Assembly (NCBI RefSeq): GCF_057098645.1
Contig: NZ_CM169472.1
DNA length: 64,000 nt
Strand: one strand, 5' to 3'
Below are positions 56,619-57,032 of this stretch, piece by piece. The translations under genes and the position numbers were made by a program. The notes under the pieces were generated by a model. That model was not told the DNA's origin and made no database searches. It was given only the letters and a program-made list of their open reading frames with translations. Position 1 is the stretch's first letter. Every line of letters starts with the position of its first letter.

Positions 56619-57032
56619 TTGTTCTCCTTCATATGCTCCGACATTTCTCCTGCATTTCTATACGTCGGCACACTTCCGTTATCGGTAAAAACAAAGAAAA
56701 AATACGGCGTAATTAATTCAATAATCACATTCACTGCAAAAATATATTCATTGGTTTACTACAATTAACCTATACATATATTAAGATGTATTGAATTGTT
56801 TAAAGAAGATAATGCATGCATTTCAAATCTGCAAGTTATTCGTTTTATTATCAAAGAAACTTTTAGTTATAATAATTACCATAAATTTTATTACATGAAA
56901 TATTCATACTGTGAATATAAAATCTCATACCGGGAAATTAAAAGAAGATGTACATTGTGCACCTTCCCTACTTAAGTAGGGATAAACCGTTATTGGTCTT
57001 GTTATCGTCATTGATACCAATCATTCCCGAAG
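56619..57032. promoter_or_regulatory. AT-rich cas3-cse1 intergenic region (Cascade operon promoter region)
   Basis: 414-bp strongly AT-rich spacer; in E. coli K-12 the equivalent region carries the H-NS-silenced Cascade promoter and an antisense promoter. Confidence 0.55.
56961..56989 (+). repeat. solitary degenerate CRISPR-repeat-like element (hairpin + ATAAACCG)
   Basis: ACCTTCCCTACTTAAGTAGGGATAAACCG vs repeat GAGTTCCCCGCGCCAGCGGGGATAAACCG: 19/29 identical, 8-nt 3' segment identical, two compensatory stem changes preserving a 6-bp stem; on the opposite strand from the array. Confidence 0.6.

What the first reader, a model, noticed from the sequence alone, without database searches (positions are those of the whole stretch)
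56961..56989. Orphan CRISPR-repeat-like hairpin with compensatory stem changes in the cas3-cse1 intergenic region
Plus strand reads ACCTT-CCCTAC-TTAA-GTAGGG-ATAAACCG. The array repeat (minus-strand sense) is GAGTT-CCCCGC-GCCA-GCGGGG-ATAAACCG. The 8-nt 3' segment, which becomes the crRNA 5' handle, is identical. The stem differs at two base pairs (C-G to T-A, G-C to A-T), both compensated so a 6-bp stem is kept. Paired covariation is what selection on RNA structure produces and is not expected from chance similarity. The element is inverted relative to the array and cas genes, so it would be transcribed antisense to the Cascade promoter, where an antisense promoter has been reported in K-12. 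It could be a Cas6e binding or cleavage site, a crRNA-like regulatory RNA (the next 32 nt, 56990-57021, would be the pseudo-spacer), or a relic of an old array. I cannot tell from the sequence whether this has been described before.
Basis: partly seen in the sequence, partly recalled or inferred. Interest (0 to 1): 0.75.

Follow-up and report, generated by a model that had tools for sequence, protein, structure and literature searches.

The report
Cascade self-regulating mini-CRISPR (CreR-type)
The repeat-like hairpin is real and is the first half of a tiny degenerate CRISPR array just downstream of cas3, on the opposite strand, whose "spacer" partly matches the Cascade operon's own promoter, so it most likely lets Cascade switch off its own genes; this kind of regulator was already described in 2023.

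Summary
56961-56989(+) matches the array repeat at 19/29 positions, with an identical 8-nt handle. It folds into the same 7-bp stem and tetraloop as the repeat.

It is not an orphan repeat. A 31-nt pseudo-spacer (56990-57020) follows, then a second degenerate repeat (57021-57049) that folds in the same register. The cas3 stop codon sits in that second loop.

The pseudo-spacer matches 56836-56852 in the same intergenic region, next to an AAG PAM. The seed is intact, and three of the four mismatches fall at positions 6, 12 and 18, which Cascade does not pair. No shuffled spacer out of 20,000 reached this match.

The PAM overlaps a conserved -35-like hexamer upstream of casA. Five other lineages (a second E. 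coli haplotype, two Atlantibacter-like loci, an unidentified enterobacterial contig, Marinomonas) have the same layout with different spacers, each matching its own promoter. Inside E. coli, seed position 7 changed G to A in both spacer and target.

This is a CreR-type regulatory mini-array: Cascade autorepression through partial pairing. The class is known. Shmakov et al. 2023 describe a matching mini-array in "the E. coli I-E locus", and Liu et al. 2023 validated a Salmonella I-E CreR using E. coli Cascade. Expression, processing and repression were not tested here.

The parts
56961..56989 (+). psiR1, the first degenerate repeat. 5' arm 56965-56971, loop TTAA 56972-56975, 3' arm 56976-56982. 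Predicted Cas6e cut between 56981 and 56982. The 8-nt 5'-handle ATAAACCG is at 56982-56989.
   Evidence: 19/29 identical to the array repeat, with the last 11 nt identical. Same fold as the repeat. Only 1 variable site among 11 E. coli haplotypes, a C-to-T change that keeps a U.G wobble.
56990..57020 (+). psiS, the 31-nt pseudo-spacer TTATTGGTCTTGTTATCGTCATTGATACCAA. It is the guide portion of the predicted CreR RNA.
   Evidence: Its best match in the whole window, on either strand, is the AAG-flanked site at 56836. 0 of 20,000 shuffled spacers equalled that match. Position 7 covaries with the target inside E. coli.
57021..57049 (+). psiR2, the second degenerate repeat TCATTCCCGAAGTTATTTGGGATTTGCAG. 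Hairpin 57025-57042 (CCCGAA / GTTA / TTTGGG plus a closing U-A pair). Predicted Cas6e cut between 57041 and 57042. The cas3 stop codon (57033-57035, minus strand) lies in the loop.
   Evidence: Folds in the same register as the repeat (-8.5 kcal/mol, z -3.2). TTCCC...GGGAT is retained. Both hairpins form in the minimum-energy fold of the 89-nt unit. Present in all lineages that carry psiR1.
56833..56835 (+). AAG PAM of the predicted target.
   Evidence: Invariant in 11 E. coli haplotypes. AAG also flanks the best target in all six lineages examined.
56836..56866 (+). Partial protospacer. It pairs with psiS at positions 1-5, 7-8, 10-11 and 13-17 (56836-56852) and is unmatched beyond that.
   Evidence: 14 of 15 non-flipped positions match in the first 18, and the seed is intact. 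The variable target positions in E. coli are 6, 7, 9, 12 and 17. Positions 6 and 12 are flipped out, 7 is compensated in psiS, 9 improves pairing, and 17 is at the distal edge.
56806..56834 (-). Predicted Pcas core promoter: -35 TTGCAG (56834 to 56829), a 17-nt spacer, and -10 TATCTT (56811 to 56806; TATTGT in K-12). The -35 overlaps the PAM complement by 2 nt. The transcription start is inferred at about 56799.
   Evidence: A CTT+G giving TTGnnn, then 16-17 nt, then TAnnnT recurs in all five other lineages despite unrelated sequence. The assignment as Pcas is an inference. It is consistent with Shmakov et al.'s statement that the target lies immediately upstream of Pcas. The published start site could not be read.
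56845..56923 (+). Candidate promoters for the plus-strand (anti-Pcas / creR) transcript: TTATTA-17-TATAAT (56845-56873, overlapping the protospacer) and ATGAAA-17-TAAAAT (56895-56923).
   Evidence: These are consensus matches only and are not conserved between lineages. Reviews report a 150-200 nt anti-Pcas RNA of unknown role from this region.

Best explanation
The hairpin is psiR1 of a CreR-type regulatory mini-CRISPR (psiR1-psiS-psiR2, 56961-57049, plus strand). It lies at the 3' end of cas3 and reads opposite to the cas genes.

**Proposed mechanism**
1. A plus-strand transcript covers the unit. This is most likely the 'anti-Pcas' RNA already reported in K-12.
2. Cas6e cuts at the base of each hairpin, giving a crRNA-like RNA of about 60 nt: AUAAACCG, then 31 nt, then a 21-nt hairpin handle.
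3. This RNA loads into Cascade.
4. Cascade binds the AAG-flanked site at 56833-56852, which abuts and overlaps the -35 of the casA (Cascade operon) promoter.
5. Pairing stops after about 17 nt, so a full R-loop and Cas3 recruitment should not occur. Cascade then acts as a repressor of its own operon.
6. Repression should ease when array crRNAs or anti-CRISPRs compete for Cas proteins.

**Shown here:** the anatomy, the fold, the statistical significance of the target match, purifying selection, and spacer/target/PAM co-evolution across lineages.

**Inferred:** transcription, Cas6e processing, Cascade loading, the exact Pcas position and the repression itself.
For: **Anatomy and fold**
- psiR1 and psiR2 both fold exactly like the repeat.

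**Target match**
- The best match to psiS in the whole window is in the same intergenic region: AAG PAM, seed 1-5 and 7-8 intact, mismatches at 6, 9, 12 and 18.
- 0 of 20,000 shuffled spacers reach this match.

**Six lineages share the layout, each with its own spacer and target**
- Window/K-12: TTATTGGTC...
- JNE/L102: TTATTGATC...
- L086: TAGTTCTCT...
- L088: TTGCTTTGT...
- L089: TTGCTCGGT...
- Marinomonas L005: TCTGTTTTT...
- Each matches an AAG-flanked site 84-154 nt upstream on the same strand, with shuffle p of 0.001 or less in each case.
- Position 6 is mismatched in all six lineages and position 12 in five.

**Covariation inside E. coli**
- Seed position 7 changes G to A in both psiS and the target, in the same two haplotypes.

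**Purifying selection**
- The mini-array has 6 variable sites in 89 nt. The rest of the intergenic region has 68 in 342 (Fisher p = 0.0025).

**Promoter context**
- The PAM complement runs into a conserved TTGnnn, 16-17 nt, TAnnnT promoter-like motif in every lineage.

**Loss control**
- Salmonella L084 has a decayed handle and no target.
- Loci with no intergenic space lack the module (L087, L006, L110).

**Literature**
- Type I-E cas3-cas8e mini-arrays are transcribed opposite to cas3 with AAG-flanked promoter targets, including 'the E. coli I-E locus'.
- A Salmonella I-E CreR represses its PcasA through E. coli Cascade.
- The anti-Pcas RNA is 150-200 nt and has no known role.
Against: - There are no expression, processing or binding data for this element.
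- The promoter of the plus-strand transcript is not conserved between lineages.
- The published Pcas and anti-Pcas start sites could not be read, so the statement that the PAM overlaps the -35 rests on my own motif inference.
- Pairing is short. In K-12, position 17 is also mismatched, which leaves 1-5, 7-8, 10-11 and 13-16.
- The upper stem and loop of psiR1 differ from the repeat, and Cas6e tolerance of those changes is assumed.
- The 3' arm of psiR2 lies in cas3 coding sequence, so part of its conservation may reflect the protein.
- In laboratory K-12, Pcas is silenced by H-NS, so any effect would be conditional.
- A 2026 study of E. coli Pcas regulation does not mention such an RNA.
Confidence: 0.78

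Rival explanations
1. It is a decaying, non-functional remnant of an old self-targeting mini-array or array. The repeat-like sequence and the promoter match are historical leftovers with no present activity in E. coli.
For: - Related loci do lose the module. Salmonella L084 has a decayed psiR1 and no target. Cronobacter L109 keeps the mini-array but has no target or adjacent Cascade genes.
- The repeats are heavily degenerate: 19/29 for psiR1 and about 14/29 (hand count) for psiR2.
- K-12 has one more distal mismatch than the window.
Against: - The mini-array is the least variable part of the intergenic region (p = 0.0025).
- A seed position is compensated inside E. coli.
- The PAM is invariant.
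- Mismatches concentrate at flipped-out positions in all lineages.
- Both hairpins are kept in register.
Confidence: 0.1
2. The plus-strand RNA acts mainly as an antisense regulator of the cas3 3' end, or the hairpins act as cas3 transcript end or stability elements. The repeat resemblance would be incidental to this role.
For: - The unit overlaps the cas3 stop codon and its last codons.
- Reviews relay a suggestion that anti-Pcas may interfere with cas3 termination or translation.
- The hairpins are palindromic, so they also form in the cas3 sense.
Against: - No terminator-like site (hairpin plus T-run) was found on either strand.
- This model does not explain the conserved ATAAACCG handle, the AAG PAM, or the co-evolving match between the spacer and a site in the promoter.
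- The overlap with cas3 coding sequence is only about 17 nt for the mini-array itself.
Confidence: 0.07
3. It is a Cas6e/Cascade decoy. The RNA only titrates Cas6e or Cascade subunits, like the solitary repeat units or RNA anti-CRISPRs of phages, and does not guide DNA binding.
For: Repeat-mimicking RNAs that sequester Cas proteins are known (Racrs; abstract of PMC10651486). A CreR would also compete with crRNAs.
Against: A decoy needs no spacer-target match, PAM or seed conservation. Those are the most significant and co-evolving features here.
Confidence: 0.05

Closest known systems
CreR (Cas-regulating RNA) of the Salmonella enterica type I-E system (Liu et al. 2023, bioRxiv 10.1101/2023.03.10.532045)
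   Same: - A degenerate mini-CRISPR in the region upstream of casA.
- psiR1 keeps the 8-nt 5'-handle and psiR2 keeps the 3'-handle hairpin.
- psiS is partly complementary to an AAG-flanked site at the casA promoter.
- It works with E. coli MG1655 Cascade, which shares nearly the same repeat.
   Different: - The spacer and target sequences differ. The Salmonella psiS starts with TAG and shares 15 consecutive nt with its target. Here the match is 17 nt, interrupted at positions 6, 9 and 12.
- The E. coli element itself was not tested in that work.
- The position of the Salmonella creR relative to cas3 could not be compared, because the figures are not held.
Regulatory mini-arrays in cas3-cas8e intergenic regions of type I-E loci (Shmakov et al. 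2023, bioRxiv 10.1101/2023.03.03.530964; NAR 51:8150)
   Same: - Two repeat-like sequences, the upstream one better conserved.
- Transcribed opposite to cas3.
- A partial target with an intact seed and an AAG PAM at the cas8e promoter.
- For 'the E. coli I-E locus', the target overlaps the H-NS site immediately upstream of Pcas.
- This is very probably the same element.
   Different: - That description is computational only for type I-E; only a type I-F1 example was validated.
- Sequence identity with their Figure 4B could not be verified, because neither the figure nor the supplements are held.
- That text makes no link to the anti-Pcas transcript.
CreTA (CreA antitoxin RNA plus CreT toxin) of type I-B/I-F systems
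   Same: - A degenerate mini-CRISPR RNA guides Cascade to repress a promoter by partial pairing.
- In relatives (L086, L088, L089, L005), a small hydrophobic ORF lies under the targeted promoter. This is the position a CreT would occupy.
   Different: - There is no intact ORF in the E. coli 5' UTR. The ATG-less reading frame there shows 8 amino-acid changes in about 39 codons between haplotypes about 91% identical in DNA (hand count from the translations).
- No toxicity has been shown for the 40-aa ORFs.
anti-Pcas transcript of E. coli K-12 (Pul et al. 2010, as summarised in PMC7074321 and PMC10011333)
   Same: It has the same strand, the same place (just downstream of the cas3 coding sequence) and a size (150-200 nt) that would cover the 89-nt mini-array.
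   Different: Its function is recorded as unknown. Equating it with the CreR precursor is my inference, because the start-site coordinates could not be read.

Membership tests
CreR / regulatory mini-CRISPR (crRNA-like RNA) | Lies inside a cas locus but outside the CRISPR array. | tested here: met
   It sits between casA (start 56618) and the cas3 stop (57033-57035). The array is 6 kb away at 50610-50943.
CreR / regulatory mini-CRISPR (crRNA-like RNA) | Two repeat-like sequences flank a spacer-length segment. The first keeps the 5'-handle part and the second keeps the 3'-handle hairpin. | tested here: met
   psiR1 has an identical handle. psiR2 keeps TTCCC...GGGAT and the hairpin. The pseudo-spacer is 31 nt. 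The folds are identical in register to the repeat.
CreR / regulatory mini-CRISPR (crRNA-like RNA) | Partial (not full) spacer complementarity, with an intact seed and the cognate PAM, to the promoter region of the effector cas genes. | tested here: met
   AAG PAM. Matches at 1-5, 7-8, 10-11 and 13-17 only. 0 of 20,000 shuffles equalled it. That the site is in the promoter is inferred from a conserved TTGnnn, 17 nt, TAnnnT motif and.
CreR / regulatory mini-CRISPR (crRNA-like RNA) | Conserved in related loci, with the spacer and target changing together. | tested here: met
   Six lineages carry different matched spacer/target pairs. Position 7 is compensated within E. coli.
CreR / regulatory mini-CRISPR (crRNA-like RNA) | Transcribed, cut by the Cas6-family enzyme and loaded into the effector. 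| not testable with these tools
   Only indirect support: a plus-strand anti-Pcas RNA of 150-200 nt is reported in reviews.
CreR / regulatory mini-CRISPR (crRNA-like RNA) | Effector-dependent repression of the cas promoter, relieved by competing crRNAs or anti-CRISPRs. | not testable with these tools
   This has been shown only for the Salmonella CreR in E. coli.
Canonical CRISPR array or array relic | (Near-)identical direct repeats with variable spacers, next to a leader, in the orientation of the array. | tested here: not met
   The repeats are 19/29 and about 14/29 identical to the array repeat (the second is a hand count after correcting the register). There is one fixed spacer, conserved across 11 haplotypes, in the opposite orientation.
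Solitary repeat unit / RNA anti-CRISPR-like decoy | A single repeat with no second repeat and no matched target. | tested here: not met
   A second repeat-like hairpin and a significant PAM-flanked target are both present.
Intrinsic terminator of cas3 | A GC-rich hairpin followed by a T-run on the cas3 sense strand. | tested here: not met
   No terminator-like site was found on either strand in 56560-57300.
CreTA toxin-antitoxin module | A toxin gene driven by the promoter that the mini-CRISPR RNA targets. | tested here: not met
   There is no intact ORF between the predicted Pcas and casA in E. coli. Relatives carry a conserved 38-40 aa hydrophobic ORF there (pN/pS 0.30), but its toxicity is unknown.

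The most novel reading that the evidence does not exclude
The long-unexplained anti-Pcas RNA of E. coli K-12 is the precursor of a working CreR that lets Cascade sense its own crRNA load.

The ancestral module in this Cas3 clade was a CreTA-like cassette: creR, a Cascade-repressed promoter, and a 38-40 aa membrane peptide (a candidate toxin) ahead of casA. That cassette is still intact in Atlantibacter hermannii, Marinomonas shanghaiensis and two uncultured enterobacterial contigs. E. coli kept the RNA and the promoter target but lost the peptide.
Probability: 0.3. Interest if true: 0.6.

Novelty: already known. Interest (0 to 1): 0.35.

Why it matters
E. coli K-12 type I-E is the reference CRISPR-Cas system, and its Pcas regulation is still described purely through H-NS, LeuO, CRP, StpA and LrhA. 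A built-in crRNA-like autorepressor would add a feedback loop that senses crRNA load and anti-CRISPR attack. It would also give a function to the anti-Pcas transcript, which reviews still list as unexplained.

This matters in practice for strains engineered to overexpress Cascade or with cas3 deleted. Deletions that remove the cas3 3' end also remove the regulator.

The concept itself is not new. What is added here is supporting evolutionary evidence and a precise, testable anatomy.

Tried and rejected
- **Rfam:** a scan of 50000-60500 at E<=10 found nothing at the element. The only real hit was sokX at 59778-59934.
- **Terminator scan:** none found.
- **Species-representative genome scan with K-12 Cas3:** I switched to a protein search plus exact-protein contig look-ups.
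- **Metagenome pattern scan:** returned mostly E. coli copies and only one new haplotype, L102.
- **Phage or plasmid copies that could mimic the mini-array:** nothing beyond chance.
- **Published Pcas and anti-Pcas start sites:** Pul et al. 2010 is not held and neither is the NAR version of Shmakov et al.. No supplements are held. Two later Pcas papers give no coordinates in their text.
- **A conserved promoter for the plus-strand RNA across lineages:** not found.
- **An E. coli homologue of the 40-aa ORF:** only an ATG-less, fast-evolving frame.
- **Family assignment of the 40-aa ORF:** no NCBIfam hit, only insignificant PHROG hits, and the only database relative was the protein itself.

Full report
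**Setting**

The window is an E. coli chromosome segment. It is 100% identical to strain UTME-3 and 98.3% identical to K-12 across the cas3-casA intergenic region. The K-12-type I-E locus lies on the minus strand:
- the array, at 50610-50943, with six repeats;
- casA, at 55110-56618;
- a 414-bp AT-rich intergenic region, at 56619-57032;
- cas3, ending with its stop codon at 57033-57035.

Only 1,133 of 5,426 complete E. coli genomes carry this version of the intergenic region.

**Observation**

Window 56961-56989(+) reads ACCTTCCCTACTTAAGTAGGGATAAACCG.
- It matches the repeat at 19/29 positions, and the last 11 nt are identical.
- That 11-mer is unique outside the array.
- The predicted fold is the same 7-bp stem and tetraloop, in the same register, as the canonical repeat.
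- A handle directly preceded by such a hairpin is expected about 1e-3 times in the window.

**Anatomy beyond the finding**

After a 31-nt segment (56990-57020) comes TCATTCCCGAAGTTATTTGGGATTTGCAG (57021-57049).
- It keeps TTCCC...GGGAT and folds as CCCGAA / GTTA / TTTGGG in exactly the repeat's register.
- The cas3 stop codon sits in its loop.
- In the 89-nt unit, both hairpins form in the minimum-energy structure.

The element is therefore a mini-array, psiR1-psiS-psiR2, and not an orphan repeat.

**Target**

I scanned both strands of the whole window with psiS, ignoring every sixth position.
- The best non-self site is 56836(+), 154 nt upstream on the same strand.
- It is preceded by AAG (56833-56835).
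- It matches at positions 1-5, 7-8, 10-11 and 13-17, which is 14 of 15 scored positions.
- The next-best sites score 11 of 15 and lack an intact seed.
- None of 20,000 shuffled spacers reached 14 of 15 with an AAG PAM in the intergenic region.
- The mismatches are at positions 6, 9, 12 and 18. Positions 6, 12 and 18 are the bases type I-E Cascade flips out and does not pair (established knowledge of Cascade).
- Beyond position 18 there is no match. That fits binding without a full R-loop, which is an inference.

**Promoter context**

On the cas-sense strand, the PAM complement CTT is followed by G. This gives TTGCAG, then 17 nt, then TATCTT (TATTGT in K-12).

The same arrangement of CTT+G, 16-17 nt and TAnnnT recurs in five other lineages whose sequences are otherwise unrelated. 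I therefore place the Pcas -35 at 56834-56829, overlapping the PAM. This is an inference.

[quoted passage not shown] I could not read the primary mapping paper.

**Comparative evidence**

Relatives were found through Cas3 homologues.

| Lineage | psiS start | Target (after AAG) |
|---|---|---|
| Window / K-12 | TTATTGGTC... | TTATTCGTT... |
| JNE151685 (L001) / L102 | TTATTGATC... | TTATTCATC... (L001; L102 has TTATTTATC...) |
| L086 (Cas3 62% identical) | TAGTTCTCTTTCTACTT | TAGTTATCTCTGTACTT |
| L088 (Atlantibacter-like) | TTGCTTTGT... | TTGCTATGT... |
| L089 (Atlantibacter hermannii) | TTGCTCGGT... | TTGCTATGT... |
| L005 (Marinomonas shanghaiensis) | TCTGTTTTT... | TCTGTATTT... |

- Every lineage has the unit on the anti-cas strand and an AAG-flanked target on that same strand.
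- Each match has a shuffle p of 0.001 or less.
- Position 6 is mismatched in all six lineages and position 12 in five.
- The Marinomonas psiR1 (CCCTAC-CACC-GTAGGG-ATAAACCG) shares the stem and handle of the E. coli psiR1, although its own array repeat is GTTCCCCACAGCCGTGGGGATTAACC. The module is therefore old and inherited with this cas3/casA clade. It is not a recent copy of the local repeat.

**Variation inside E. coli**

Eleven distinct haplotypes were compared.

| Region | Variable sites per nt |
|---|---|
| Flanking intergenic segments | 0.15-0.36 |
| psiR1 | 0.034 |
| psiS | 0.10 |
| psiR2 | 0.07 |
| PAM | 0 |

- The mini-array is less variable than the rest of the intergenic region (Fisher p = 0.0025).
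- The single psiR1 change turns a C-G pair into a U.G wobble.
- The variable target positions are 6, 7, 9, 12 and 17. Positions 6 and 12 are not paired. Position 7 changes G to A together with psiS position 7, in the same two haplotypes (L001 and L102). Position 9 changes so as to create a match. Position 17 is at the distal edge of pairing.

**Loss cases**

- A Salmonella locus with 72%-identical Cas3 (L084) has a decayed handle (GGGTAAACCA), a weak hairpin (z -0.45) and no target.
- Atlantibacter subterranea (L087), Marinomonas rhodophyticola (L006) and Erwinia amylovora (L110) have no intergenic space and no module.
- Cronobacter L109 keeps a mini-array but has no adjacent Cascade genes and no target.

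**Mechanism**

The best-supported reading is a CreR-type autoregulator:
1. A plus-strand RNA covers the unit.
2. Cas6e cuts at 56981/56982 and at 57041/57042.
3. The product is a crRNA-like RNA of about 60 nt, which loads into Cascade.
4. Cascade binds at and upstream of the Pcas -35.
5. The Cascade operon is repressed without DNA cleavage.

Reviews report a 150-200 nt "anti-Pcas" RNA from just downstream of cas3 and record its function as unknown. Its strand, position and size fit the CreR precursor, but this link is my inference. The candidate plus-strand promoters are consensus matches only and are not conserved across lineages.

**Comparison with what is known**

- Liu et al. 2023 defined CreR and showed that a Salmonella I-E CreR represses its PcasA through E. 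coli MG1655 Cascade. Competing crRNAs and AcrIE8 relieved that repression.
- Shmakov et al. 2023 found mini-arrays in cas3-cas8e intergenic regions of about 19% of bacterial I-E loci. These are transcribed opposite to cas3 and have AAG-flanked promoter targets. The paper discusses "the E. coli I-E locus" in terms that fit this element.
- I could not see their figure or files, so identity with this element is very probable but unverified.
- I found no experimental test of the E. coli element. A 2026 paper on E. coli Pcas regulation does not mention it, and neither does a 2025 review.

**Verdict**

The feature is real, is under selection and is very likely functional. The class is already described, and almost certainly this locus too. 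Hence the novelty call is "already known", with moderate-to-low interest.

What this analysis adds:
- the within-species compensatory change;
- the PAM/-35 overlap conserved across genera;
- the probable identity with the anti-Pcas RNA;
- a conserved small hydrophobic ORF under the same promoter in relatives.

Noticed in passing
L086:8125-8247; L089:11898-12020; L088:3042-3164; L005:12856-12972 (equivalent window region 56619-56798, minus strand): Relatives that carry the mini-array also have a conserved 38-40 aa ORF between the Cascade-targeted promoter and casA, for example MAEVIEAIKEFLKVANSINYQGIALISLLIALLALVKHRH. It has a strongly hydrophobic C-terminal segment at residues 22-36 and pN/pS of 0.30 between L088 and L089. 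It has no NCBIfam or significant PHROG match, and one source annotates it only as a hypothetical protein in Atlantibacter hermannii. It is a candidate CreT-like toxin or small membrane protein. E. coli has only an ATG-less, fast-changing frame at this position.
   Followed up: partly
window 57694-57695 (cas3): The window has a 1-bp deletion (GATGATGGCG to GATGATGCG) relative to K-12, and it is 1 bp shorter than nearly all of the listed E. coli matches, including UTME-3, over 56300-57700. The deletion splits cas3 into ORFs 57341-59698 and 57033-57644. It is either a real frameshift that inactivates Cas3 or a sequencing error.
   Followed up: partly
window 59778-59934 (-): A strong Rfam match to the sok antitoxin RNA (98 bits, E 8e-22) lies between cas3 and cysH. 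This is the known hokX/sokX-type locus upstream of cas3.
   Followed up: no
window 56940-56960 (+): The 21 nt just upstream of psiR1 (AAAAGAAGATGTACATTGTGC, containing the palindromes TGTACA and GTGCAC) are invariant across all 11 E. coli haplotypes, although the surrounding intergenic DNA varies at about 0.26 sites per nt. This could be a leader, a processing signal or a protein-binding site.
   Followed up: no
window 57048-57070 (+), inside the cas3 3' end: A 9-bp perfect hairpin (AGGGATGAC-TCTG-GTCATCCCT) lies just after psiR2. It is also present in relatives, including L090, which lacks the mini-array. It therefore probably belongs to cas3 (coding constraint or a 3'-end structure) and not to the CreR unit.
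   Followed up: no
L109:5659-6733 (Cronobacter dublinensis): Here cas3 is followed by a repeat-like mini-array on the opposite strand (..TTAGGGGATAAACCG + TGGCTCTTGG..) and then by two small genes (83 and 70 aa) in place of the Cascade genes. No promoter target was found. This may be cargo or a toxin-antitoxin pair at the mini-array site.
   Followed up: no
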